A DNA stretch of 28,298 nucleotides from a bacterium (lineage in GTDB: Bacteria > Hinthialibacterota > Hinthialibacteria > Hinthialibacterales > Hinthialibacteraceae). Each line of letters opens with the position of its first letter. Positions within the stretch are counted from its first letter, which is position 1. Positions 2,793-16,818 of the stretch are shown here, piece by piece. Position numbers and translations under genes: made by a program. The notes beneath the pieces were generated by a model. The model saw only the letters and a program-made list of their open reading frames with translations, was not told the DNA's origin and did no database searches. Location of the stretch: positions 1-28,298 of the forward strand of contig CAXXSM010000077.1 in assembly GCA_963663405.2 (NCBI GenBank). The letters run 5' to 3'.

Positions 2793-5700
2793 ATGAAACT
2801 CCGGATCACCGATCAACATCGGACACACGTTGAAGAATTTCGTAAGAAACACCGGACAGCTCTTCTAGCGCTTCTTTTCACGGATATCGTCGGCTCTACA
2901 AAAATCAAGCAGCAATTAGGAGACAACCAAGGCGTGGCGTTGATAAAACAACATCACGACCTGGTTCGCATACTGCTTCGTGAGTTTCCAGAAGGTGAAG
3001 AGATTGACGTAGCGGGTGACTCCTTCTTCCTCGTATTCACCAAACCTTCTGACGCGGTGAAATTTTCTCTTCAGTTACAATCCAAACTACGAGCTTTCGT
3101 TCGAGAGATTCCTCACCCTGTGCTGGATCGAATCGGAATACATCTCGGAGAAGTGGTGGTTGAAGAACGGGAAGGATCGGCCCAAAAAAAAAGACTTACT
3201 AGGCATCCAAGTCGACACCTGTTCTCGTGTTATGTCGGTTGGTAAAGGGGATCAAATTTTGATGACCCGTTCAGTGTTCGATAACGCCCGACAAGTCTTG
3301 AAAGGAGAGGATATTGAAAATACAACCGAGTTAATGTGGATGAACCACGGACAATTCATGCTCAAAGGAGTTGAGGAACCCATTGAGATTTGTGAAGTCG
3401 GTGAGATTCATTCCGCCTATCTCACGCCTCCCTCTGATTCCGAGAAAGCGCGCAGATATATCTCAACAGACAGCGATCTCATCCTTGGTTGGCAACCGGC
3501 ATTAGAACAAAGTGTTCCAACGAGCACCGAGTGGGTTCTTGAAGAAAAACTCGGTGAGGGAGGGTTTGGAGAAGTTTGGAAAGCGCGTCATCGGCAATTG
3601 AACGAATGCCGTGTCTTCAAGTTTTGTTTCCGCGCAGACCGCGTGCGGACACTGAAACGGGAAGTCACTTTATTTCGCCTTCTTAAGGAGCGCGTTGGCG
3701 AGCATCCCAATATCGTTAAACTATACGATGTTTTTTTTTGACGAGCCACCTTATTATATCGTCACGGAGTACGTGGAAGGGAAGGATTTGAACTCGTGGT
3801 GTCAAGAACTTGGAGGAGTAGATAACGTACCCCAGGAAACTCGTCTAGAAATTGTGGCTCAAACCGCTGAAGCTCTGCAGGCGGCGCATGATGCGGGAGT
3901 GATCCATCGAGATGTGAAACCAGCCAATATTCTTATTCGGAGTGGTGGAAACATCGCCTGGGGACGTTCAAGTCAAACTTGCTGACTTTGGAATCAGTCA
4001 AGTCGTTTCCTCCGGACATGCTGGCGGGGCTCTCTCGCAGCGGTTTCACTCAAACCGTAATGATAGGGGAAAGCGCGTCTCGTTCCGGAACGCATATGTA
4101 TATGGCTCCTGAACTGATTGCCGGAAAATCGGCGTCGATTCGTTCGGACATCTATTCCCTGGGAGTAGTTTTGTATCAGCTTTTCATTGGTGATTTATCC
4201 AGCCCGATTGGGGCAGGATGGGAAGAGAAGATTTCTATTCCACTTCTCCGAGTGGATATTATGCAATGCTATGCAGGTGACCCCGATCGACGGTTCGCCA
4301 GCGCGCGGGAACTGTCGAGAAACCTGCGGTCAATGAAGAAGCGAGAGTATGAGTGGAACGAACGAGAGAAAGCGGAACGTCTCATTGCGCGCCGCCGGAA
4401 ACTGACCGCCTTATCGATCTTACTCGCAAGTATTCTCTTGCTTATTGCTATTGCGTTGGGATATGGTCTAAGACAAGCTGCGTTCGAACGAAATATCGCA
4501 ATTGAAGAGAGTCGAAAAGCCGTTCAAGCCAAAAATTTGGCCGAACAAGAGCAGTATTTCGCCAATTTCGCCCTTGCGTATTCTCACATCAAGGAGAATC
4601 GATTCGAACAAGCTCGTAAACTTCTCAAGGCCTGTCCGGAATGGTGTAGAAATTTGGAGTGGGGAAGAGCCCAATTATTATGCAATCAAGACGTATTCAC
4701 GTTACGAGGACATTCCGGAGATGTGTGGTCCGTCGCATTGAGCCCTGATGGAAAACTGGCCGCTACTGGGAGTACAGAGCAAGCGAAGATTTGGGATGCG
4801 ATAACAGGTCGGGAGCTTCTCACATTAGAAGTCCCATCCATACCCCTGGCAGTCTTTAGCCCATCTGGGGATTATCTAGCCGTAGGCAATACCGACAACA
4901 CTGTCACACTATTGAATGCGCAGACCGGCGATGAGCTGAGCGTCCTCAAAGGGCATACAGCGTCTATCGCATGTTTCGCTTTTAGTATGGATGGAGAACG
5001 TATCCTTACAGAAGCGATGGACGAAACCGGAAAAGTATGGGATGTAAAAACCGGTCACGCTCTATTTACTCTTAAAGGTTTGAGTGGACCGGTCTCTGCA
5101 GTAGCTTTTAGTCCAGATGGCAAGCGGATCGCGACGGAAAGTGGATGGAAAACAGCAAGTGTTTGGGATGTGGAGACCGGTAAGAAACTGCACACACTGG
5201 AAGGACACTCCGACGCCGTCACGTATATTTCATTCAGCCCCGACAGCAAGCGAATTCTTACCGCCAGCTTAGACCATACATCAAGAGTCTGGAACGTCGA
5301 AACGGGTGATTCCCTGCTTACTTTGAAAGGACATACTGGGGCTTTAGTTCATTCCACATTCAACTCGAGCGGCGATTATATTGTTTCCTCAAGCGTCCGC
5401 AATCAAGTGAGAATATGGGACGCAAATACGGGAGCCCAGCTTTTTACCCTTGACGCGATTGGTGGAGATCACGCCGTCTCATTCAGCCCTGATGGTAAAC
5501 GTATAGTAACCATAGGCATGGATAAGGAAGCGAATCTCTGGGATATACAAACCGGTTGTATGCTCGTTTCTCTCAAAGGCCATTCGGAGGGAGTCACTTC
5601 TGTCGCATTCGATCCTGACGGCAAGCGCGTCGTTACTGGAAGCAGGGATCATTCAGCGAGAATTTGGGATGCGGACACCGGCCGGGAACTGCATTGTTTT

Positions 5701-8607
5701 CATGGTCACTCTAATGATGTAACGTTTGTATCATTTAATCCCGATGGGAAATATGTGCTTTCAGGAAGCGCCGACGGAACCGGAATTGTCTGGGATGCGA
5801 AGACGGATCGAACGCTTTTTTCTCTACCCGAACTTGACAGCGAAAGCCCTAGGGATCCAGAGCATTTACGAGGGAATATTCATTTCGTCTCATTTACTCC
5901 GGATGGGGAACGGATTGTGACAGTAAGCTCTGATAAAATAATCCGTATCTGGAGTGTTAAAACTGGTGTAGAATTGATTCGGTTGAAGGGGCATACCGGT
6001 TTGAGATTAAGTGAGATTCCTCAAACGAATGAAAATCCTGTTGAGGATCTTCACTTCGTTCAACTTTCCCAGGATGGAAGACGCATTGCTGTAGAAAATC
6101 TCGATAGGATGATCACCGTATTCGACACAACGAATGGAAAACTAATTAATTCTTTTGAGGCGCCTCTCAGGACGGAACTATTCAAACTTAGTCAAGACGG
6201 AAATCGCATAGCCATTAAGAATCAGGATAACCAGATTTCGTTAAGAGAAGTAGAAAGTGGTAGGGAATTAATTACATTAGGAGAACACAAATCCGATATC
6301 AAATCCATAGCGATCCGCTCTGACAACCAACAAATCCTATTAGGCTGTCTTAATGGAACCGTGGAAATTTGGGATATAGAATTAGGTAAAAAACAGTTTG
6401 TACTCGAAGGCCATTCCGGCTGCGTCAAGCATGCCGTGTACACAGTAAACAATAAATATATCATTACCCAAAGTGATGAAACAATAGTATGGGATAGCGA
6501 TGGTCATAAAATAGCGCAATTAAACCATGAAAAAGAACAAGAATCTTTGATAACCTTGTCTCCGGACGGCAAGCGTTTAGCCCTTTGTCAATCGGATAAT
6601 ACTGTGCAGATATTGGATACGAAACTAGGGCAAGAAATTATGTCGCTCAAGGGACATTCTGACGTTGTGATTCACTGCGCTTTCAGTCAAGACGGGAAAC
6701 ATATTCTCACCGGTTCTTCTGATGGAACAGCGAAATTATGGTTGCTAGAAAACGATAAAACAGAGGCTTCGCGCGCGGGAGAAAATACGTTTATATCTTG
6801 TGCTTTCAGTCGGGATGGCAGGCAATACCTAATCGGATGGAATGACAATACCGCGAGACTAATGGATACTAAACGCGGTGAAGAAATCCTGCGTTTAGAA
6901 GGCCACAATCCGAATGTGAACTGTGTTGCGTATAGCCCTGACGGCAAACGTATTGTCACAGGAGCTTTTCAACCCGCGGGAATGCAAATGTGGGAGGGGG
7001 AGACAGGAATAGAATTAACATGGTTTCATAAGCAATGTGACATTCGAACTATCGCTTTTAGCCGGGATGGAAAACATATCGTAACGGGAGGATTAGACTA
7101 TACAATATGGGACTCACACAACGGGCAGAAACTACAGACGATTGAAGGCATCGAATTCGGGAGGAAACCCGTCGCGCTCAGCCCAACAGGGAATCAATTG
7201 GTCACCGCGTTTGGAGACCATGCGGCGAAAGTGTGGGATGTGGAAACCGCTGTCGAACGATTTCATCTTAACGAACACTCATCAAGCGTTTGTTCTGTCT
7301 CTTACAGCCCGGATGGCGGTAAAATCATCACTTCATGTGTAGGCAATACGGCGAAAGTATGGGATGCGAAAACCGGCGAAGAATTAACTCATTTAACACT
7401 CTGGGATGAACATCCTATTCAACTATGTTCTATCGTCGCGTTTCGACCGGATGGGAAACGTTTTGCGACCAGCTGCGGCGCCGTTGTGAAAGTATGGGAT
7501 ACAGAAAATTACCAAGAGATTTTTTCGTTTGACACCCATTCTTCGTTAATCATGTGTCTTGCCTTTAGTCCTAATGGTAAACAGATTGCCACGGGATCCT
7601 TTATTGGTCCGGCGAAGATCTGGAATGCGGAAAGCGGAGATCTCTTGCTTAGGCTTGGTGACGAGAAAGCGAAAGTAAACTGTATTGCTTATAGCCCGGA
7701 TGGAAGTCGGATTATTGTGGGTGGGAAGATCTGGGATATAGAGACCGGGCAAGAAATATATACATTAAAGGTTTCGTCTGGCAGAATCAACGCCGTCGCG
7801 CTCAGTCCCGACGGAAAGCGAATCGCTACGGGAAGCGATGACAAAACCGTTAAAATTTGGGATACGCAAACTGGACATGCGCTCTTTTCGCTAAAAGGAT
7901 ATGAAAAACGTGTCGGATCCATCCATTTCAGCCCGGACGGCAAACACATCCTTACCGTGGAGGAGAACGGCCATACCGCAACGATTTGGAATATGGAAAA
8001 AGGTAATGCAATCCATACCTTGAAAGGACACAACAACGTTGTCTGGTCAGCGGTGTATAATTATGATGGTAGTAAAGCCACTACTGCGAGCAGTGATGGA
8101 ACAGTAAAGGTTTGGGACGCGATAACCGGTGAAGAATTATTCACTCTCGATAAACATAAGGATATTGTCAAGCATGTTCTCTTCAGTCCTAACGGCGATA
8201 GAATTCTAACAGGAAGCCGAGACTCGACGGCGAAAATATGGGATACTGAGAGTGGTCAAGAATTACACACATTAGTCGGCCATACACATGGAGATGTATA
8301 CCTGACGGCATTCAGTCCTGATGGGAAACGAATCATCACGATAGGCGACGACCATGTAGCCAAAGTGTGGGATACGATCACTGGACGTGAACTCATGTCT
8401 TTCCCAGTCACCCCTCTCAGCGCGATCACCTTCAGCCAAGATGGTCAGAGAATCCTTGCGGTCGATAAGAAGGGGCGATTCATCGAATGGGATACATTTC
8501 CATTGCATGAGCAAGATTATCCCGGCGATTCCAGCGTTCTCTTTACAGATCGAGTAGAACTCTACAAACAGGTGTATTGGAAAAAACATCATTTTCAAGG
8601 AGAATAG
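2793..8607 (+). CDS. Class III nucleotide cyclase - Hanks Ser/Thr kinase - TM - WD40 repeat protein (4 frameshifts; pseudogene or sequencing errors)
   Basis: Cyclase motifs FTDIVGST, GDSF, RIGIHLGEV. Kinase motifs LGEGGFGEVW, HRDVKPANIL, KLADFG (in a frame missing from the ORF track, ~3975-3992), GTHMYMAPE, SDIYSLGVV. TM LTALSILLASILLLIAIALGYGL, then WD40 repeats. Frames are joined by an extra base at A9 3184-3192, T9 3731-3739, ~3950-3963 and ~4005-4012. Confidence 0.88.
4690..8493 (+). repeat. Roughly 28-30 WD40 repeats (about four beta-propellers)
   Basis: Recurrent LxGH...V..vaFSPDGkri.tgS.D.takiWD units of ~42 aa; count estimated from length. Confidence 0.9.
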
Positions 8608-8829: not shown

Positions 8830-8933
8830 CCTAAGCTGAGCGATTATGTGTGAATAATACTGATAAAAAACTGCGTAACGCTTTGATTTCTCATACGTTA
8901 TACATATATGGCATTCATAATTTAATCTAACCT

Positions 8934-9379
8934 CAGACCTCACTAAAACAGCCATTTTAGCCCCAAAATAATCGCAAATAAGATTCCCACTTTCTGAGGG
9001 AATTTGCTGTCAGCCTACTCCCCTCTACAATCCAGTAATTCAATAAATAAAAAAACAGAGAGGGACTCATCATTTCTCCTTTATCACATTCCGATTATTT
9101 ACAAAAGATTTTAGGCACGGACAAGAGAAATCCGGTGTTTACGATTTTCTGCGATGAAGAGGAAGACCAGTTGCATGTCTATTACGGCGCGGATCTATTA
9201 GAAATTGTACCGGACGATCGAGAGCATATCGACAGACCTCACTAAAACAGCCATTTTTACCCCAAAATAATCGCAAATAAGATTCCCACTTTCCGAGGGA
9301 ATTTGCTGTCAGCCTACTCCCCTCTACAATCCAGTAATTCAATAAATAAAAAAACAGAGAGGGACTCATCATTTCTCCT
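8934..9379 (+). repeat. Tandem duplication of the IS left end (299-bp unit)
   Basis: 8934-9080 recurs at 9233-9379 with a few differences (TTTTAGCCCC vs TTTTTACCCC; TTTCTGAG vs TTTCCGAG). 9081-9232 recurs at 13125-13276. Confidence 0.95.
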
Positions 9380-9387
9380 ATGATAAG

Positions 9388-9393
9388 TGTCTA
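9388..9393 (-). promoter_or_regulatory. -35 box (TAGACA) of predicted IS110 circle-junction promoter; -10 TATGAA at 13110-13115
   Basis: Joining the ends through one core gives TAGACA-17 bp-TATGAA with TGG before the -10. Junction promoters are established for IS110. Confidence 0.6.
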
Positions 9394-9616
9394 CTCCACA
9401 AAATGAAAATTTTCATTTTTTATGGATGTATGTATTTCTTGCACAGATGAGATCGGGAATTCTTTTCATAAATATGCAGTTATGAAAAACAGAATGTCCA
9501 CTTTTCTCATCTCTATTTCTTTAGTTTCTTGCTCATCTTCCGATAGTAATTCTTACCAGGGAAAGCGGAGACAGGCTCTGCTGGAGAGCAACCTGTCAAG
9601 GAATACCCTGATGCGT

Positions 9617-11761
9617 GTGCGACGGATTGTCGCTGAGGGGGCGGATTTTATTTCGTCCCCTTTTCGTTTGCCCAGCGAAGCGGGCAACTCCGGCTTGTTG
9701 AAAGAAACAGGCGTCGCCCCGGCCAAGGGGAAGACAATCCGAATCGCAAGGGCGCCGCTGGCAACGGCGGGGTCTGAAGGAAGCGATAGGAAGTGAGCGG
9801 CACACAGCGCGAGCGAACCTGATTCGGCGGCGCGGGTGGGTAAGCGTGCGAAATAGCGCGAAGCCCGGTACTTGGTCAGACCCGTGACGTGATTGAGGGT
9901 GGGGCTGCTCACAGGAACCCGTCAGTAACTGGGGAAGCCTCATATCGTTCCGCCCGGCACAGCCGGAGCGGATAGTGAAACTCAAGAGGAGACTCGAGAC
10001 GGATCGAAGCGGTGTGAGGTGGCAGATGAATCCGTAGTAGTGTTGAAATCCCGGCCGGAGAAAGCGGGTAACCGTCTGGAGGAGAAAACCGGGATGACCT
10101 GCGGCCAAGTTCGCAGGGGCTGGTACGAGCCAAAAGCCGTAGCAGTTGCGAAGGGAAGAAGTTGATTTGAAGGTTCTTGAAACTCGACCGAAGCGCGGAA
10201 CCGAGTGCAAACCATCCAACGGGATGGGGCGCTTGAAAGGCGGTAGGCTGTGAAAGGCTGTCTGCTCTTCTTGGCCGCTCACTGGAGTAACTTGGATCGG
10301 AGACCGCACATTGCCTGAGAAGGATAGAAGACGGCGAGGACCAAGTGAAGACCCAGAGGGAAAGCGAAGAGGGCGAGGGGAAAGGAACGCAGGAGTCAGA
10401 GCCGTGAAAGTCTACTACAGTCTATACGACCGGATGTTGTCGAAGCGAAATCTATTCGACGCATTCAGGAAGGTGGAGTCCGCGAAAGGCGCCGCCGGAA
10501 TCGACCGGCAGTCCATCGAGGGATTTGCAGAGGATCTGGACGAGAATCTCACCGCGCTGGCGAAGGAACTCCGGGAAAAAAAGTACCGGCCGAAACCGGT
10601 CAAACGAGTGGAAATTCCCAAGCCGAATGGCGGGATCAGGAAACTCGGAATTCCCGCAGTCCGAGACCGGGTTGTGCAACAGACCCTATTGAACATTCTG
10701 CAACCGATATTCGATCCGGAATTTCATCCGTCGAGTTACGGGTATCGTCCGAAACGGAGTTGTCACCAGGCGATAGCCAAAGCGGCGATGTTTATCCGGG
10801 AAGGCGGATTGCAATGGGTCGTCGACATGGACTTGTCGAAATGTTTTGACACACTGGATCATGAATTGATCCTGCAAGGAATTCGTAAGCGGATCACAGA
10901 CGGAAGCATTTTGAATCTGATCCGTCTGTTCTTGGAGAGCGGTGTAATGACGGAGGAAGGCTGGCAGGCGAGTATAGTGGGAAGTCCACAAGGAGGAGTG
11001 ATCAGTCCCCTGATCGCCAATATCTACTTGGACGCGTTCGATCAATTCATGAAAAATCGAAACCACCGCATCGTTCGCTACGCCGATGACATCCTGATTT
11101 TAACTCGCTCGAAAAGCGCCGCGGAGAACGCCCGCAAGCAGGCAAGCGCCTACCTGGAAGGGGAACTCAAACTCACCGTAAACCAACAGAAGACCCATAT
11201 TGTCCATAGCCGGGACGGGGTGAAATTTCTCGGAGTGATGATCCACACGGGTTATACTCGCATCCAGGAGGACAAGATCAAAGGGTTGAAAGGAAAGGTG
11301 AAGAAGATCACCCGGCGTAATTCTCCGGTGAATCTGAAGAAGGTCATCGAAGATCTGAACCCGGTGATCCGTGGGTTTGCGAACTATTTCCGGATCGCGA
11401 ACTGCAAGGGAGTGTTCGAAGCCCTGACGAAATGGATCCGAAGACGCCTGCGAGCCAAGCAACTCAGTTTGTGGAAGAAGCCGAAAAGGCTGCATCGCCA
11501 ATTGAGACGGCTGGGTTACAAGGGGGAATTTCAATTCATCAAGATGAGATCGTGGAGAAATGCAGCGAGTCCATTAGCCAGTTTTTCCATGCCCAACTGG
11601 TATTTGGAAGAACTGGGGTTGTTCGATATGGAATCTGTGAAAACCGGAATTTCTGTTTCAATCAAATGAAGGAAAATCAACAGGAGCCGTATACGAGGCC
11701 CGTACGTACGGTTCTGTGAGAGGGATAAGGTAGGAAGGCCTCCTACCTTACCCTACTCGAT
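9617..11761 (+). mobile_element. Group II intron with RT/maturase ORF
   Basis: 5' GTGCG at 9617 (GTGTG at 9615 is an alternative); domain V GAGCCGTATACGAGGCCCGTACGTACGGTTC at 11684-11714; domain VI hairpin with bulged A; ends ...CTACTCGAT. Confidence 0.93.
10404..11669 (+). CDS. ltrA: Group II intron reverse transcriptase/maturase, no HNH endonuclease domain
   Basis: GAAGID, RKLGIPAVRDRVVQ, SYGYRP, GSPQGGVISP, RYADD and domain X (LNPVIRGFANYF). GTG start with AGGAG at 10391-10395. Confidence 0.95.
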   Translation: MKVYYSLYDRMLSKRNLFDAFRKVESAKGAAGIDRQSIEGFAEDLDENLTALAKELREKKYRPKPVKRVEIPKPNGGIRKLGIPAVRDRVVQQTLLNILQPIFDPEFHPSSYGYRPKRSCHQAIAKAAMFIREGGLQWVVDMDLSKCFDTLDHELILQGIRKRITDGSILNLIRLFLESGVMTEEGWQASIVGSPQGGVISPLIANIYLDAFDQFMKNRNHRIVRYADDILILTRSKSAAENARKQASAYLEGELKLTVNQQKTHIVHSRDGVKFLGVMIHTGYTRIQEDKIKGLKGKVKKITRRNSPVNLKKVIEDLNPVIRGFANYFRIANCKGVFEALTKWIRRRLRAKQLSLWKKPKRLHRQLRRLGYKGEFQFIKMRSWRNAASPLASFSMPNWYLEELGLFDMESVKTGISVSIK

Positions 11762-11855
11762 CCAAATGACAAGCCCGAGCATTCGCTTATGCCTAAAAAA
11801 ACTCATGAACGACTTTCCGGCTCAGATCGACTCTTGGGAAAACCGAATCCTCCTC

Positions 11856-12893
11856 CTACGACCCACCAGCGCGATTGGCATCCTGCAGCACAAAATTGGG
11901 AAAATCTTCAAACACCCATTTATTCTTCAATGTGTTGTATATCACTCGTAAAAATTTCCGGGCCAACGCAATGATGGCTTTGCCTGTTCCTCTCTCCACT
12001 TTCTTGCGTTCATAAAATGTTCGCAGATACGGACTATAACGAATCGCGATCAACGCGCATTGCACTAAGGTCGTACGAGCCAGTTTGTTGCCTTGTTTCG
12101 TGATCCGTCCCGATCGCTCCGTTTCGTTCGAATTGCTTACGCGGGGAACCAATCCCAAATACGAGGCAATTTTCCCTTCATTTTCGAAATCATTCACATC
12201 GCCGATCACGGACAATAGAATGCTCGCGCTGGTCTTCCCGATCCCCTTGATGCTGGTCAGATTGGTATGACCTTCCTGTTTGGGACCTTCCTCGTGGATG
12301 GTCGATTCCAGTTTCTTAATGCTCTCATTCAAACTGCGAATTTGATCGACCAGCACCTGCAATTCCGCAGCGACCAACGTGTCCCATGGAAATGACAGAA
12401 CCTTCTGCAGCCCTTTTTCGCTGGACAATTCTTCCCGCTTCAATTCGATTCCATGCGCCGACAAGATATTATTGATCTTGTTTTTTAACGTCGTCCGTAG
12501 TTTCACTAATTTGTCGCGGGTTTGGGTGAGGCTGGCCATTTGCGCCTGCATTTTGTCTTTCATTCTCACCTCCGGCAGTGGGTGATCTTTGGCTAAGAAC
12601 AACGCTAAGGTTTCCGCGTCGTTCTTATCCGTTTTCTTGACCGACTGGCTGATCACCTTGAACTGACTTGGATTCACGATCACCACGCGTTTGACACGCG
12701 TCTGGATCGCCTCGTAAAACATCCGGGTGTTCCCCGTCGATTCGACGGCCACCTGATCCGACCGGCGAAGCGTCTGGAGGAAATCCGGCAACTCACTCAT
12801 TCTCCAGGTTGTTGTCGCTTTCACTTTTTGTTTCGTACGCCTGCATACGGTAAAACAATTCCGATGTAAGTCGATTCCTAAATAGTCTGCCAT
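11856..12893 (-). CDS. IS110-family DEDD recombinase/transposase
   Basis: LGIDLH, AVESTG, KTDKNDA (DEDD); SIKGIG; SYLGLVPRVSNS (Tnp-domain serine). Confidence 0.95.
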   Translation of the reverse strand: MADYLGIDLHRNCFTVCRRTKQKVKATTTWRMSELPDFLQTLRRSDQVAVESTGNTRMFYEAIQTRVKRVVIVNPSQFKVISQSVKKTDKNDAETLALFLAKDHPLPEVRMKDKMQAQMASLTQTRDKLVKLRTTLKNKINNILSAHGIELKREELSSEKGLQKVLSFPWDTLVAAELQVLVDQIRSLNESIKKLESTIHEEGPKQEGHTNLTSIKGIGKTSASILLSVIGDVNDFENEGKIASYLGLVPRVSNSNETERSGRITKQGNKLARTTLVQCALIAIRYSPYLRTFYERKKVERGTGKAIIALARKFLRVIYNTLKNKWVFEDFPNFVLQDANRAGGS

Positions 12894-12909
12894 GTCTCCA
12901 CCTCGTTCT

Positions 12910-13103
12910 TGTTTGGGTGGAGTAGACGTGCTTTGGGGCGGTCACCAAACTCCTATCCAAGGTCGCTATGCCTTATGGTGGCGCTTCGGTTATAGGTCTG
13001 ACCAATCTCCTTTACGAGGTCGCTGTGCCTCACTAAACGATACAGCCTATAACCTGTCTACTCCGGATTACTATTGGTTTCGTCCGGAATCTCACCGCCT
13101 CAA
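12910..13103 (-). ncRNA. Predicted IS110 bridge RNA
   Basis: Two parallel stem/internal-loop/hairpin modules (GG-CAYAGCGA-CC) whose loop strands match the target and donor sequences; closed by GGAGUAGAC/GUCUACUCC. Ends are approximate. Confidence 0.8.
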
Positions 13104-13118
13104 GCCTTATTCATACCA

Positions 13119-15383
13119 TCTCCTTTATCACATTCCGATTATTTACAAAAGATTTTAGGCACGGACAAGAGAAATCCGGTGTTTACGATTTTCTGCGATG
13201 AAGAGGAAGACCAGTTGCATGTCTATTACGGCGCGGATCTATTAGAAATTGTACCGGACGATCGAGAGCATATCGAATACAAATTACTCGTCGCTCGACT
13301 CTACAACGCCAACCTCAATGCGACCATCTTGCAAGAAGTCTTTCAAGTGGACCGGAAAACCATGAAGCGGTGGGGCGCCGCTCTTCGCTCTGGGGATAGT
13401 GAACAACTACGGAAAGTGTTGTTTGGCCGCCAAGCGCGAAGAAAACTCACTCCGGAAATCGAATCGTATATCCGCATGCGATTTCCCGCGATTTACGAGG
13501 AAACAAAATATGAATATAGCAAACGGATGCGGGAAGAAATTGAGCAGGTGTTCGGCTGCACGCTATCCGGGGAAACGCTCCGTCCCTTGCTGAGAGAATT
13601 GAAGGAAAGCATAAAAGTTCAAAAGGAAAATGAGGAAACTCCCTGGGATTGTGAGCAGGAACCCGAGATCGAAGAAGAGGAGAAGACAAGCGAAATTGGC
13701 TCTGAAAACGAAGAAATTCGAGAACAATCTAAGGAGTCATCCACACCAATGCCTTGTAACAATCGCAAGGAGTCTCCCGAATTAAAAGAAGCCTTTCCGG
13801 AGGAAGTGACGCTGTGTCATCACCTGGGCGTGTTGCTGTTCAGCGCCTTGTTTCTCAGTCTCGACGCTTTCCCGGGGGAGGCGAGTTGGCTGCTCAAACA
13901 ATGGGTGGCGATCATCTTGTTAGGAGCGGTCAATATCGAACAAACCAAGTTGCTGGATTTCGAGGATTTGAAACGGCTTTTGGGGAAGTGCATGCGCTCC
14001 TTGCATGACCAACGAACGCATCTGGGCCAAATGGCGACGGTCGCGATGGCGGAGCAGGTTCTTCGGTTAAACGCCGCAGAGGTCGATGCGGCGGCGAACG
14101 ATGACTTTTATTACGATCCCCATACGAAACTCTATACAGGAATCCAGAACGTCTTGAAAGGCTGGTGTCCAAGCATTCGTTCGGCGGATAAAGCGCTCCA
14201 TATGGATTTTATTCACACGGCGGCGGGGCATCCGGTGTATCTCGAATCGACCGATAACTACGAAGACATGCGGGATCGGTTTTTTCAGGTGACCAACCAC
14301 TTTCGAGCGCTTTTACAGATGGATAAAAAGAAGGTGATCACCTTCATCGTTGACCGTGGGATATACAGTCTTGAAGTCTTTCAGAAATTCATCGAAGATC
14401 CTTCCACGCATGTGATCACGTGGGAAAAGAATTACAAGTTGGCGCCTTGGCCAGCGGAACCGGCGCCGGGAGCCTTCACGCTGGAACGGAACCGCAATTG
14501 CGCTACGGATCTGCAACTCTATACCTTCGCCTGCCTTGATGAGCGCTGGGAAAAGGATTCGTCGATGCGGAGGCTGCGCGTGCGCGCGACCAATCCCAAA
14601 GGACGGACGATCGAAGTGGGCGTATTGACCGATGACTTGACTCGGCCGGCCCCAGAGATAATTACCTTGATCTTCCGGCGCTGGATCCAGGAAAATGATT
14701 TTAAGTATTTGGACAAACACTTTGGGATTAACGAAATCACCAGTTATGCGGTGATTCCTTACAAGCGATTACAAGATCACCTGGAAGATCAACAAATGAA
14801 GAGCGGCGCATATAAAGCGCTGGAAATGGAACGAAGCCAAACGCAAGAGAAATTGGGCAAACTCTTGGTCCAGGAGCGTCAACATCCCGGAAAAAATGCG
14901 AAACGAGCCGAAAAGATTCAAACCTTGTCTCACCGGCTGGATGAGATTGACGAGGAAATGAAAACGACAGAAAAGGAAATGTCCCGGCTCGAGTTTTTAA
15001 TCGAGCAGGATTGCGTCCGCTTGGATACACGCAATAAATATTTGATGGACGTTTTGAAATTGTTGGCGCGAAATATCTTTTATAAAATGCTGGAGCCGTT
15101 CAAAAAAGAGTATGATAATTTCAGGGATGATCACGTGCTCTTTCGTTCCTTAACTCAATCGGATGGAGTCATCAAACAACAGGGAGATCAGGTGGAAGTC
15201 ATTCTCCTTCCGAAACCGAATTATCCACCGAAAGTAAGGCGGATTATGGAGCAGTATCTGGCTAACATCAATGAGACCCACCCCCTTATGCACGATGGCT
15301 CGAATCGGCAAATTCACTTTCGACTGGGGAAAAAATCGGAATTTGAAATTGCGATTGTTTCAGGACCAAAACGGCCGAAATAG
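13119..15383 (+). CDS. Large DDE transposase with N-terminal HTH region; start codon separated by the IS110
   Basis: FYYDPH, FIVDRG and RRWIQENDFKY catalytic motifs; HTH-like LQEVFQVDRKTMKRW; coiled-coil insert; stop lies within the right TIR. Confidence 0.85.
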   Translation, partial: SPLSHSDYLQKILGTDKRNPVFTIFCDEEEDQLHVYYGADLLEIVPDDREHIEYKLLVARLYNANLNATILQEVFQVDRKTMKRWGAALRSGDSEQLRKVLFGRQARRKLTPEIESYIRMRFPAIYEETKYEYSKRMREEIEQVFGCTLSGETLRPLLRELKESIKVQKENEETPWDCEQEPEIEEEEKTSEIGSENEEIREQSKESSTPMPCNNRKESPELKEAFPEEVTLCHHLGVLLFSALFLSLDAFPGEASWLLKQWVAIILLGAVNIEQTKLLDFEDLKRLLGKCMRSLHDQRTHLGQMATVAMAEQVLRLNAAEVDAAANDDFYYDPHTKLYTGIQNVLKGWCPSIRSADKALHMDFIHTAAGHPVYLESTDNYEDMRDRFFQVTNHFRALLQMDKKKVITFIVDRGIYSLEVFQKFIEDPSTHVITWEKNYKLAPWPAEPAPGAFTLERNRNCATDLQLYTFACLDERWEKDSSMRRLRVRATNPKGRTIEVGVLTDDLTRPAPEIITLIFRRWIQENDFKYLDKHFGINEITSYAVIPYKRLQDHLEDQQMKSGAYKALEMERSQTQEKLGKLLVQERQHPGKNAKRAEKIQTLSHRLDEIDEEMKTTEKEMSRLEFLIEQDCVRLDTRNKYLMDVLKLLARNIFYKMLEPFKKEYDNFRDDHVLFRSLTQSDGVIKQQGDQVEVILLPKPNYPPKVRRIMEQYLANINETHPLMHDGSNRQIHFRLGKKSEFEIAIVSGPKRPK

Positions 15384-15415
15384 TGAGTTCTGAACCTATT
15401 GGGTGAGGGAAATCA

Positions 15416-16818
15416 ATGGCGCGTTCCAAGAAAAAATCGAAACGAAATCCGGCTAAGATCACTAAAATTGGAGTCACCTCCGATGTGCTGACTTCGCGAG
15501 GAGGACTCAACTTCTTTTCAAAGTATATTGAAAACATACAAATTCTTTCTGTCTTAGGAATGCTATTTGGCTCCATCCGGAAAAGTAAAAAAGGACAGTC
15601 AATCGAAACCATCTTAAAACAAGTGATCTGTAATTTAATGAATGGCATGAGCCGCCATTTGACTTACTTTGACCAATTGAAGACGGATCAAGGCTATACC
15701 GCCAGTCTCGAACTGACGTCGGAGGAGATGGTCTCCTCTCACAGCGTCAAACGATTTTTTAAAGCCTTTTCCATGCCCCTGGTTTGGGCGTTTCGCAAAC
15801 TGTTGAAGCAACTGTTCCTGTGGCGGTTGCGGTTGGAGAATCCACTCGTCATTTATCTCGGAATCGATTCAATGGTGATGGACAACGACGAAGCCAGCAA
15901 GCGGGATGGAGTGCAGCCGACGTACAAAAAAAAGAAAGGCTTTCACCCGTTGCAGATGACGTGGAAGCGAGTGATTATAGATGCGGTGTTCCGTGGAGGC
16001 AAGAAACATTGCAACCATGGAGAGACGGTGGCCAATATGGCGCGAGAAATCGTGAAACTCATCCGGAAAAAATATCGGAAAGACGTAGCCATCGTCTTTC
16101 TTCTGGATGGAGGATTTTTCGACGAAAAACTCTTCCAGGAATTTGAAGCGCTGAAGGTCGGGTATATCTGGGGGGGAAACTCTACGAAGACCTTTCGGAC
16201 TATGCCGAAAGCCTGGAGAAAGAAGAGTGGAAAAAGTATACCAATGGGAAAGACGGATGGGATTATTACGAGATGGAGGATCGGCGAGCGAGTTGGTCAA
16301 AATCGCGCCGCGCCATTTTCTGCCGCTTCACCGCGGAAGATCCGCAGCGAGTGTTTGACGCGTTTCGTCCCCTGACGATACTCTATACCAACTTGGGGCA
16401 AGGTGAGTCGATTGACGAACAACTTCTATTCGTTGGTCGGCAGGATCTCATCCAGACCGAAAAGATCCTCGAATGCGCTCATGGACGGGGACGGGATGAA
16501 CTAGTCCATCGCGCCTTCAAGAACTTTGCCTTCGAGGCCCTACCGTTCCAGCGGTTCGCTCCGAATGCCGCCTACTATTACACAATGGTTGTCTCTCACT
16601 TTTTATACGAATGTTTCAAAGCAGATACATGTGAGGCGATCTTGCCTCTCGAAACGTATGCGTCGACTTTCCGACGAAAAGTAATTGATATCGCTTCAAA
16701 GATTGTTCGAAAGAGTGGAGAGATATGGATCAAGTTCACTCAGGCCACTTGGAACGATCTCCAACTCGATAAATTCTGGGACCGATGTAAGAATCCCCCT
16801 CAATTTGTTTGGACCTAA
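15416..16818 (+). CDS. IS1380-family transposase (one frameshift at G7 16170-16176)
   Basis: LTSRGGL, LGIDS, YKKKKGFHPL, LDGGF, HGRGRDELVHR, F..NAAYY. Restoring one base joins the two ORFs via ...GGKLYEDL. Confidence 0.88.

What the first reader, a model, noticed from the sequence alone, without database searches (positions are those of the whole stretch)
12910..13103. Readable bridge RNA programmed against another transposon
Minus strand, module 1: stem GGUUAUAGG-CUG/CAG-A-CCUAUAACC, loop strand AUCGUUU, hairpin GAGG-CACAGCGA-CCUC, loop strand UAAAGGAGA. These match the target ATCATTT|CTCCTTTA (9069-9083) with one G:T wobble. Module 2: ACCAU, hairpin AAGG-CAUAGCGA-CCUU, AUAGGAG, matching the donor junction ACCAT|CTCCTAT. 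This fits the established bispecific bridge mechanism, but with a 6-bp shared target/donor sequence, duplicated-looking loops, an outer closing stem, and guide polarity apparently flipped relative to IS621 as I recall it. Candidate new programmable recombinase with target, donor, promoter and enzyme all in view.
Basis: partly seen in the sequence, partly recalled or inferred. Interest (0 to 1): 0.88.

Follow-up and report, generated by a model that had tools for sequence, protein, structure and literature searches.

The report
Bridge RNA of an IS110-family element
This is a genuine guide ("bridge") RNA of an IS110-family mobile element that has jumped into another insertion sequence, an ordinary member of a large, already known class of RNA-guided recombinases, with an unusual gene layout.

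Summary
Window 9380-13118 (minus strand) is an IS110-family element. It has a 345-aa DEDD/Tnp recombinase (11856-12893), a 225-nt left end that folds into a two-loop bridge RNA, and a right end invaded by a 2,096-bp group II intron (9666-11761). It sits in the left end of a multicopy IS ("X"); TCTCCT is present at both junctions and once in the empty sites.

Eighty homologous loci share the RNA. On 42 sequences, 25 of 44 pairs show compensatory changes.

- Loop 1, 3' strand: covaries with the left flank (0 of 5000 permutations).
- Loop 1, 5' strand: matches the right flank only loosely.
- Loop 2, 3' strand: equals the conserved right end.

The whole family inserts between an AAGGAG Shine-Dalgarno-like motif and a start codon, so the hit on a transposon looks incidental.

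The "flipped polarity" is real. The RNA lies upstream of the gene, as in IS621 and ISEc21, but its guide order is that published for IS1111-type elements.

Verdict: a real feature and a new member of a known kind. Interest 0.35.

The parts
9380..13118 (-). IS110-family element, 3,739 bp as it stands here and 1,643 bp without the intron. The ends are ambiguous within the shared hexamer.
   Evidence: Comparison with the empty site: repeats 8934-9080 = 9233-9379 and 9075-9232 = 13119-13276, sequence. Single copy in the held genome.
9374..9379 (+). TCTCCT, copy of the shared target/donor hexamer at the right-end junction. By analogy with IS621 it holds a CT core at 9375-9376.
   Evidence: The core assignment is inference.
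13119..13124 (+). TCTCCT, copy of the shared hexamer at the left-end junction.
12919..13103 (-). Bridge RNA. The 5' end is inferred from the -10-like hexamer; the 3' end is taken as the last conserved helix arm. Neither end has been mapped.
   Evidence: Fold; RNAalifold on 42 sequences, 22 of 40 pairs compensatory; my own structure, 25 of 44 pairs compensatory, 92.7% of cells paired, 0 of 500 shuffles. G:U pairs fix the strand.
13060..13090 (-). 5' stem-loop (AUUCCGGA ... UCCGGAGU).
   Evidence: The family helix has 6 of 6 pairs with compensatory change.
12988..13054 (-). Target-binding loop. Outer stem 13054-13043 / 13000-12988; 5' guide 13041-13035 (AUCGUUU, possibly from 13042); hairpin 13031-13016; linker G13015 U13014; 3' guide 13013-13007 (AAAGGAG); AU at 13006-13005, a handshake-like position.
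   Evidence: The 3' guide covaries with the left flank. The 5' guide does so weakly. Spacing is the same as IS621 A67-N4-G72-U73-RTG(7)-HSG(2).
12943..12987 (-). Donor-binding loop.
13110..13115 (-). TATGAA, a -10-like hexamer preceded by TGG, inside the left end.
   Evidence: Read. The conserved TGnnATGAAT is seen in the loci aligned. Inference.
9388..9393 (-). TAGACA, a -35-like hexamer in the right end. It would lie 17 nt from the -10-like hexamer once the ends are joined.
   Evidence: right ends read T[TA]GACA-like in most loci. Junction promoters are reported for IS621 and ISEc21/ISEc11. Inference.
11856..12893 (-). Recombinase gene, 345 aa.
   Evidence: PF01548 5.3e-16 and PF02371 4.1e-25; NF033542 'IS110 family RNA-guided transposase' 242 bits against a cut-off of 140.
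9380..9665 (-). Distal part of the right end. The proximal part is 11762-11855.
   Evidence: Contigs of runs X2 and X4 join 9665 to 11762.
9666..11761 (+). Group II intron inserted in the right end, antisense to the recombinase. Its reverse transcriptase/maturase ORF is 10311-11669.
   Evidence: RF02001 and RF00029; RVT_1 and GIIM; the joint that skips 2,096 bases.
9069..9083 (+). Unoccupied copy of the target, in a partial duplicate of the left end of X (8934-9232).
13119..15392 (+). Body of the host element X. Its first 147 bp are 9233-9379.
   Evidence: Five copies in the genome. Terminal inverted repeats 35 of 50 identical, with AACCT on both sides.

Best explanation
An IS110-family (DEDD/serine 'bridge') recombinase element lies at 9380-13118 on the minus strand. 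Its left end encodes a bridge RNA of about 185 nt.

Shown by sequence and comparison:
- The RNA has a 5' stem-loop and two pseudo-symmetric internal loops.
- In loop 1 the 3' strand, AAAGGAG, has the sequence of the left flank plus the shared GGAG, so it would pair with the strand antisense to the recombinase gene. The 5' strand, AUCGUUU, is complementary to the sense strand of the right flank.
- In loop 2 the 3' strand, AUAGGAG, has the sequence of the right end plus GGAG. The 5' strand is complementary to the first bases of the left end.
- The element is inserted at TCTCCT in the left end of another IS.

Inferred by analogy with IS621, ISEc21 and ISEc11:
- The element excises as a circle.
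- The joined ends create a promoter: TAGACA, 17 nt, TGG-TATGAA.
- The RNA is made and bound by a recombinase tetramer. Loop 1 holds a target, loop 2 holds the joined ends, and strands are exchanged at a CT that here lies on the antisense strand.

Family-wide, the 3' target guide is fixed on a Shine-Dalgarno-like NNAGGAG and the 5' guide is a loose, G/U-rich match to spacer plus start codon. The family therefore lands between ribosome-binding site and start codon, in the orientation of the downstream gene.
For: Protein: PF01548 and PF02371; NF033542 at 242 bits against a cut-off of 140; distant match to the IS621 structure 8wt6, E 9.6e-14.

Boundaries: repeats and the empty site, and the same 15-mer unoccupied in two further X copies.

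Homologues: 476 stretches matched, 110 encode relatives and 80 were kept. My motif parse found the RNA in 74 of those 80. ATAGGAG lies downstream of the gene in 68 of 75 parsed elements.

RNA structure: 22 of 40 RNAalifold pairs have compensatory changes. In my own structure 44 pairs are 92.7% paired, 25 pairs are compensatory, 0 of 500 shuffles reach this, and slid controls give 33-46% paired.

Guide-to-flank covariation:
- Loop 1, 3' strand against the left flank, 62 unique junctions: identity is 1.00, 0.98 and 0.87 at -1 to -3, and 183 of 248 positions are identical against 147.6 +/- 3.2 in permutations (0 of 5000). All 22 junctions with non-majority guides match at 2 or more of the 4 positions scored, and 19 of them match at 3 or more.
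- Loop 1, 5' strand against the right flank, 61 pairs: mean score 5.20 against 4.63 +/- 0.135 (1 of 2000).

Spacing: A-CCUC-G-U-[7-nt guide]-AU is the same as IS621 A67, G72-U73 linker, RTG 74-80, handshake 81-82.

Intron: an intron-less form of the same insertion exists in other runs.
Against: - No RNA, circle junction or empty-site read was observed. Only contigs were laid, and no joint spanning 9380-13118 was reported.
- At any single fixed register the 5' target guide does not beat permutation: 70, 350 and 437 of 2000. For a typical flank about a third of non-cognate guides score as well as the cognate one. That half of the 'readable' code is loose.
- The 5' guides do not pair with the presumed CT core, unlike the IS621 LTG and LDG.
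- In the family-supported donor register this element has an internal C:A mismatch.
- Rfam 15 gives no hit, so no curated model confirms membership.
- The copy in this window carries a 2.1-kb intron and is single copy, so current activity is unknown.
Confidence: 0.9

Rival explanations
1. The element belongs to a distinct third layout: IS1111-type guide order and att polarity, with the bridge RNA on the left-end side. It is neither a plain IS110-group element like IS621/ISEc21 nor a plain IS1111-group element.
For: The RNA is upstream of the gene, yet the complement of the sense strand comes first. The published rule pairs upstream with bottom-first and downstream with top-first (PMC11187229 passages; section 6). 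The protein aligns better with IS5075 (27% over 284 aa, E 2e-18) than with ISEc21 (30% over 111 aa, E 1e-6). Its length of 345 aa lies in the 330-350 aa range quoted for IS1111 enzymes.
Against: The same paper notes exceptions: a few IS1111 members with an upstream non-coding region, such as ISMtsp17. The layout may therefore already be catalogued. I built no phylogeny. Supplementary trees and figures of both 2024 papers could not be seen. This differs from the best explanation only in classification, not in mechanism.
Confidence: 0.45
2. This copy is an inactive relic. The RNA and guides are fossils, and the match to the flanks only records a past insertion.
For: Single copy in an 82%-complete assembly. 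The right end is split by a group II intron. Three intact target copies in the same genome are unoccupied.
Against: The ORF is full length, with family-typical N- and C-terminal motifs. Both termini and all RNA helices are intact. The intron lies downstream of the stop codon and leaves the last 286 nt of the right end untouched. Near-identical intron-less copies occur in runs of two other studies.
Confidence: 0.25
3. The structured leader is only a cis-regulatory 5' UTR of the recombinase mRNA, and the complementarities arise from the duplicated hexamer and chance.
For: It lies directly upstream of the start codon. AGGAG-rich strands resemble ribosome-binding sites.
Against: Guide positions -1 to -3 change together with the flanks across lineages (0 of 5000 permutations). 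The donor-side column covaries with the left-end base in 21 of 21 combinations. The architecture maps onto the solved IS621 RNA nearly nucleotide for nucleotide on the 3' guides.
Confidence: 0.03

Closest known systems
IS621 bridge RNA / bridge recombinase (Durrant et al. 2024, PMC11208160; Hiraizumi et al. 2024, PMC11208158)
   Same: Same enzyme domains. The RNA is in the left end. It has a 5' stem-loop plus two pseudo-symmetric loops, each with a 5' guide, a hairpin with a bulged A, a G-N linker, a 7-nt 3' guide that ends on the core, and two handshake-like bases. A promoter is predicted across the joined ends.
   Different: The protein is only distantly related (E 9.6e-14). The strand that carries the presumed CT core and pairs with the 3' guides is antisense to the gene here and sense in IS621. 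The target and donor right halves are nearly identical (AAAGGAG against AUAGGAG), giving 5-6 shared bp instead of 2. The 5' guides do not cover the core. There are extra long-range helices, 13099-13094/12942-12937 and 13063-13056/12927-12920.
IS1111-type seekRNA elements (ISEc11, ISKpn4, ISPa11; IS5075/IS4321) - Siddiquee et al. 2024, PMC11187229
   Same: Same order of guides: the complement of the top (sense) strand lies 5' of the bottom-strand match. In the IS5075 locus L111, a 9-nt complement of the sense right flank at position 97 of the non-coding region precedes a sense-identical 7-mer at position 126. The recombinase is of similar length and gives the best pairwise alignment. IS4321 and IS5075 also target another transposon (title in the reference list).
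   Different: There the RNA lies downstream of the gene, in the right end, and 7-17-bp subterminal inverted repeats sit at both tips. Here the RNA is upstream. The 11-nt inverted repeat GTCTACTCCAC has its left arm 191 nt inside the element. The right arm does not covary with it in relatives and looks like a -35 box.
ISEc21 (IS110 type with upstream seekRNA)
   Same: Upstream non-coding RNA. It also targets another mobile element: a conserved stretch of IS3-family transposase genes (PMC11187229; locus L110).
   Different: The bottom-strand match comes first (paper). Protein similarity is limited to the C-terminal 111 aa.
IS900 / IS901 of Mycobacterium avium
   Same: These IS110-family members are reported to insert between Shine-Dalgarno sequence and start codon (PMC2942039 passage citing Doran 1997 and Inglis 2003).
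   Different: They have larger transposases (a 1,200-bp gene, PMC8141618 passage). I did not examine their sequences. The orientation relative to the target gene is only recalled, so I make no claim about it.

Membership tests
IS110-family bridge-RNA (bridge recombinase) elements | Recombinase with an N-terminal DEDD RuvC-like domain and a C-terminal Tnp domain carrying the conserved serine | tested here: met
   PF01548 and PF02371; NF033542 at 242 bits against 140. GIDL, ESTG, KTDKNDA and GLVPRVSNS line up with IS5075.
IS110-family bridge-RNA (bridge recombinase) elements | Site-specific insertion without long terminal inverted repeats, with a short core shared by target and joined ends | tested here: met
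   Empty site against occupied site. TCTCCT is found once in the target and at both junctions.
IS110-family bridge-RNA (bridge recombinase) elements | Conserved structured non-coding RNA with two internal loops in a non-coding end | tested here: met
   25 of 44 pairs compensatory, 0 of 500 shuffles.
IS110-family bridge-RNA (bridge recombinase) elements | 3' strand of the target loop covaries with one flank | tested here: met
   62 junctions, 0 of 5000 permutations.
IS110-family bridge-RNA (bridge recombinase) elements | 5' strand of the target loop covaries with the other flank | tested here: inconclusive
   With a free register, 1 of 2000 permutations. With a fixed register, 70 to 437 of 2000. 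In this element, 8 bp with 2 wobbles.
IS110-family bridge-RNA (bridge recombinase) elements | Donor-loop strands match the two element ends | tested here: met
   AUAGGAG equals the right end in 68 of 75 elements, but it is invariant, so there is no covariation. The 5' strand column pairs with left-end base 3 in 21 of 21 combinations.
IS110-family bridge-RNA (bridge recombinase) elements | CT core dinucleotide covered by all four guides | tested here: inconclusive
   CT is present on the plus strand (9076-9077) and is covered by both 3' guides. The 5' guides do not cover it.
IS110-family bridge-RNA (bridge recombinase) elements | RNA is bound by the recombinase and required for recombination; circular intermediate with a junction promoter | not testable with these tools
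   The hexamers TAGACA and TATGAA are only read from the sequence. No raw reads were laid.
IS110 group in the narrow sense (IS621/ISEc21 layout) | Non-coding RNA upstream of the gene | tested here: met
IS110 group in the narrow sense (IS621/ISEc21 layout) | The guide that pairs with the bottom strand lies 5' of the guide that pairs with the top (sense) strand | tested here: not met
   Here the 5' guides are complementary to the sense strand.
IS1111 group | Non-coding RNA downstream of the gene | tested here: not met
   The RNA is in the left end. The right end (380 nt without the intron) was not examined for a second RNA.
IS1111 group | The complement of the top strand lies 5' of the bottom-strand match | tested here: met
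   rule.
IS1111 group | Subterminal inverted repeats of 7-17 bp at both ends | tested here: inconclusive
   An 11-nt inverted repeat lies at 9389-9399 / 12917-12927, but its left arm is 191 nt from the tip. In relatives the right arm varies like a -35 box and does not follow the left arm.
Rfam families | Match to a curated covariance model | tested here: not met
   No hit at the gathering threshold in the window. Nothing credible at E <= 10 in 12850-13200.

The most novel reading that the evidence does not exclude
This widespread clade, seen in Acidobacteriota, anammox Planctomycetota and others, is a third architectural type of bridge-RNA element. It combines a left-end RNA with IS1111-type strand polarity.

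Its 3' target guide is hard-wired to the Shine-Dalgarno sequence. Its 5' guide is a degenerate, wobble-rich reader of spacer plus start codon. Together these would make a natural 'gene-start seeker' that rebuilds a ribosome-binding site for the gene it lands in front of.

No paper in the searched library links bridge RNAs with such targeting.
Probability: 0.35. Interest if true: 0.55.

Novelty: new member of a known kind. Interest (0 to 1): 0.35.

Why it matters
Bridge recombinases are wanted as programmable tools for DNA insertion, so each natural system with readable guides, target and donor is a candidate. This one adds no new principle.

Its family does show two things that specialists may use. 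First, the position of the RNA (left end or right end) and the strand order of its guides can be uncoupled, which bears on how the IS110 and IS1111 groups diverged. Second, the old observation that some IS110-family elements insert between Shine-Dalgarno sequence and start codon gets a simple RNA-level explanation here: a conserved AAGGAG-reading guide.

The nearly identical right halves of target and donor (5-6 shared bp) are also a natural test case for how much the two loops must differ.

Tried and rejected
- Rfam search, at the gathering threshold over the whole window and at E <= 10 over 12850-13200: only chance-level rows.
The loop sequence is therefore not a family feature.
- A first junction regex returned nothing because the pattern was wrong. 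I rewrote it.
- Longest-run scoring of the 5' guide: 5.79 against 5.28. It was uninformative, and my offset range cut off the window's own pairing. I replaced it.
- Fixed-register test of the 5' guide: not significant.
- Exact-match scan for guide order in ISEc21 and IS5075. It was too strict for ISEc21. By eye, ISEc21 has a near-copy of its left flank 5' of a complement of its right flank, but I rely on the paper for that element.
- NCBIfam cannot separate IS1111 from IS110 types: IS5075 scores 342 bits and ISEc21 198 bits on the same model.
- Read laying: no contig joined 9379 to 13119 (empty site) and none joined the two ends (circle). Contigs cannot show absence.
- NZ_CP053751.1 (ISEc11) is not in the held collections.
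- I considered and dropped the idea that the right-end copy of GGAGTAGAC is a pairing partner (subterminal repeat) of 12927-12919. In relatives it varies as T[TA]GACA without compensation.
- I built no phylogeny, because named IS110 and IS1111 references with known grouping were too few in the held collections.

Full report
**What is there**

On the minus strand a 345-aa ORF (11856-12893) carries the two domains of IS110-family recombinases. These are PF01548 at 5.3e-16 and PF02371 at 4.1e-25. It also scores 242 bits on NCBIfam NF033542, 'IS110 family RNA-guided transposase', whose cut-off is 140.

**Boundaries**

Two repeat families fix the insertion.
- 8934-9080 equals 9233-9379 (98% identical).
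- 9075-9232 equals 13119-13276 (100% identical).

The sequence 8934-9232 is thus an uninterrupted copy of what is split at 9379/9380 and 13118/13119. The hexamer TCTCCT occurs once in the uninterrupted copy (9075-9080) and at both junctions (9374-9379 and 13119-13124).

The interrupted DNA is itself an insertion sequence, which I call X. It has five copies in the held genome. Its imperfect terminal inverted repeats are 35 of 50 identical, and a 5-bp direct repeat, AACCT, flanks it. X sits inside an IS1380-like element that has three uninterrupted copies elsewhere.

The 15-nt target is intact and unoccupied in the window's partial X copy and in the X copies on contigs C119 and C81. The copies on C65 and C147 carry C to A at the base equivalent to 9079. 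The IS110 element is single copy in this 82%-complete assembly.

**The intron**

Rfam finds group II intron domains at 9755-9922 and 11682-11751, and the ORF 10311-11669 is a reverse transcriptase/maturase. Logan contigs of run X2 join 9665 directly to 11762; the contig is 1,010 nt with no mismatch and 255 nt on the shorter side. Contigs of run X4 show the same joint with 53 nt on the shorter side. The X2 contig also runs across the 9379/9380 junction. So the intron (9666-11761, 2,096 bp) is a later invader of the right end, and the element proper is 1,643 bp. These runs are contigs. They showed neither an empty site nor a circle junction, and they cannot show absence.

**The RNA is real and conserved**

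A scan of one genome per species returned 110 relatives, of which 80 were kept. They are 41-71% identical in protein and come from Acidobacteriota, Scalindua and other anammox bacteria, Alphaproteobacteria and others. The protein database holds thousands more: 4,672 of the 8,000 candidates scored reach E <= 0.001, and the best are 82-88% identical.

My motif parse found the same three-part RNA upstream of the gene in 74 of the 80 loci. Five of the six misses are cut at a contig end or begin mid-protein, and L038 has unrelated upstream sequence.

I aligned 42 distinct sequences: the window plus 41 loci. I left out L072, L073, L085, L088-L090, L092 and L101, which have long insertions or a mis-parsed loop, and the loci for which no left junction was found.
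- RNAalifold predicts 40 pairs, 22 of them with compensatory changes.
- The structure I wrote from the window's own helices has 44 pairs. 92.7% of cells are paired and 25 pairs have changes on both sides. No shuffle of 500 reaches any of the five measures, and sliding the partners by 1-3 columns drops pairing to 33-46%.
- Conserved G:U pairs (for example 91/171 and 93/169) fix the transcribed strand as the recombinase strand.

Two long-range helices, 13099-13094/12942-12937 and 13063-13056/12927-12920, both find support. They cross each other, so they form either a pseudoknot or alternative conformations. In this element the second also overlaps the 5' stem-loop by four bases.

**Reading the guides**

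All statements here are in the orientation of the recombinase gene.

*Loop 1, 3' strand.* This reads G-U-AAAGGAG-AU.
- I kept 62 unique left junctions. I dropped loci with no junction motif, loci with flanks shorter than 12 nt, and three loci whose core is not GGAGA.
- The three bases before GGAG are identical between guide and flank in 100%, 98% and 87% of cases. The fourth and fifth are identical in only 10% and 13%.
- 183 of 248 positions are identical, against 147.6 +/- 3.2 when flanks are permuted (0 of 5000).
- Lineages whose guide reads GUA, UAA, GAA, AGA, UCA, ACA or UUA have the same triplet in the flank.
- The guide is therefore 7 nt (13013-13007).
- The layout A-CCUC-G-U-[7 nt]-AU has the same spacing as IS621: flipped-out A67, linker G72-U73, RTG 74-80 in its extended form, handshake bases 81-82 (PMC11208158, passages).

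*Loop 1, 5' strand.* This is 11-12 nt and is the variable part of the RNA.
- In the window, AUCGUUU pairs with AAATGAT of the right flank with one G:T. Counting U13042:G, that is 8 bp.
- I tested 61 unique guide/flank pairs with 38 distinct guides. I dropped L085, L088, L089 and L101 (loop mis-parsed), L034 (tandem right ends), and loci with less than 16 nt of flank.
- The best-register score is 5.20 against 4.63 +/- 0.135 (1 of 2000 permutations). Even so, for a typical flank 35% of foreign guides score at least as well as the cognate one.
- At any single register the signal vanishes.
- In 53 of the 61 flanks an ATG or GTG follows GGAG within 2-11 nt, most often 6. Most guides begin NAU and are rich in G and U.
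- The family therefore lands between a Shine-Dalgarno-like AAGGAG and a start codon, in the gene's orientation, and the duplicated GGAG leaves a ribosome-binding motif in front of that gene.

*Loop 2, 3' strand.* AUAGGAG is invariant. It equals the last bases of the right end plus GGAG in 68 of 75 parsed elements.

*Loop 2, 5' strand.*
- At the one informative, variable left-end base, however, that register pairs in only 14 of 21 lineage combinations.
- The register 2 nt upstream (CCACC, 12981-12977) pairs in 21 of 21 (18 Watson-Crick pairs of three types and 3 G:U), at the price of a C:A mismatch in 11 of 21, this element included.
- That register also places the guide at the same distance from its hairpin as in loop 1.
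- I regard the register as unresolved, leaning towards CCACC.

**Polarity**

In IS621 the 5' guides pair with the bottom strand and the 3' guides with the top strand. The donor is described as the RE-LE junction = LD-core-RD, so the top strand is the sense strand. Siddiquee et al. report the same order for ISEc21, whose RNA is upstream. They report the reverse order, with the top-strand complement first, for all IS1111-type elements tested, whose RNA is downstream (PMC11187229, abstract and passages).

Here the RNA is upstream, yet the 5' guides are complementary to the sense strand. The geometry between RNA and DNA is the same as in IS621 only if the strand antisense to the gene is called 'top'. 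On that strand the shared hexamer reads T-CT-CCT, with a CT where IS621 has its core.

The same paper says a few IS1111 members have an upstream non-coding region, for example ISMtsp17 (section 6). The layout may therefore be catalogued, though I found no analysis of such an RNA.

The protein is far from all references:
- IS5075: 27% over 284 aa, E 2e-18.
- ISEc21: 30% over 111 aa only.
- IS621: E 9.6e-14.
- Best plasmid-borne relative: 50.8%.

**How it most likely works**

Shown here: the enzyme family, the ends, the conserved RNA fold, and complementarity of four loop strands to the two flanks and the two ends, with covariation for two of them and weak covariation for a third.

Inferred from the characterised relatives:
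- Excision to a circle.
- A promoter across the joined ends: TAGACA at 9393-9388, a 17-nt spacer, and TGG-TATGAA at 13118-13110. The right-end hexamer is conserved as T[TA]GACA-like in most loci.
- Binding of the RNA by a recombinase tetramer, and strand exchange at the CT.

**Comparison and novelty**

The RNA is a bridge RNA in every testable respect, so the mechanism is established knowledge from 2024.
- Aiming at another mobile element has precedents. [quoted passage not shown]
- Insertion between Shine-Dalgarno sequence and start codon is on record for IS900 and IS901 (PMC2942039 passage).
- A 2026 preprint models 32,190 bridge RNAs with 86 covariance models and notes many structures that deviate from IS621 (section 2.4 read).
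- My two searches that combined bridge RNA or seekRNA with Shine-Dalgarno, ribosome-binding-site or translation-initiation terms found no paper that makes the link described here.

I file the finding as a new member of a known kind. Two features are worth a specialist's glance: the uncoupled RNA position and polarity, and the hard-wired AAGGAG guide with nearly identical target and donor right halves.

Noticed in passing
window 9666-11761 (+): A group II intron with an RT/maturase ORF sits in the right end of the IS110 element, antisense to the recombinase. Contigs of two other runs carry the same IS110 insertion without it.
   Followed up: partly
window 8934-9232 and 9233-9379: The first 299 bp of element X are followed directly by a second start of X. 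This is a partial tandem duplication lying inside the AACCT target duplication. Among the contigs listed, none bridges 9232/9233, so a misassembly of this multicopy repeat is not excluded.
   Followed up: partly
window 9233-9379 + 13119-15392; G000 C147, C65, C119, C81: Element X is about 2.4 kb, with imperfect terminal inverted repeats of about 45 bp, a 5-bp duplication and a 754-aa ORF. The ORF gives only weak hits: IS630 model 1.5e-7 and Transposase_29 4.5e-4, both below cut-off. It may belong to a poorly described IS family.
   Followed up: partly
G000 C65 and C147 copies of X (L015/L005, L016/L004): Two of the four other X copies carry C to A in the CTCC of the IS110 target, which would break pairing with the conserved 3' guide.
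   Followed up: partly
window 8850-8933 and 15393-16375: X is itself inserted in an IS1380-like element (ORF 15416-16375, NF033539 1.8e-36, below cut-off). Three uninterrupted copies of that element lie on C7, C28 and C65. The nesting is four levels deep: IS1380-like, then X, then IS110, then the group II intron.
   Followed up: partly
window 13099-13094/12942-12937 and 13063-13056/12927-12920 (-): Two conserved long-range helices of the bridge RNA cross each other, forming a pseudoknot or mutually exclusive folds. The passages I read on IS621 describe no such closure.
   Followed up: partly
run X6, contig ending at window 13021: A sediment-metagenome relative, 90-99% alike elsewhere, has a different 5' strand in loop 1 (5 of 11 bases differ) and a compensated hairpin. 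This is a natural change of guide between close relatives.
   Followed up: no
L034 (CAWFHD010000003.1), right end: One copy of a multicopy relative has a second right end about 320 nt downstream of the first, where the terminal motif ...ACAAACCATCATAGGAG is repeated in tandem. This could be a tandem or aborted insertion.
   Followed up: no
window 3979-8607 (+): A 1,542-aa ORF with an N-terminal Ser/Thr-kinase-like region and many beta-propeller (WD40/TolB-like) repeats. Its repeat units account for most of the direct-repeat families in the window.
   Followed up: no
G000 C153:20282-21295; fragments on C18, C103, C35: A second, different IS110-family gene (178 bits on NF033542) and several fragments are present in the same genome.
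   Followed up: no
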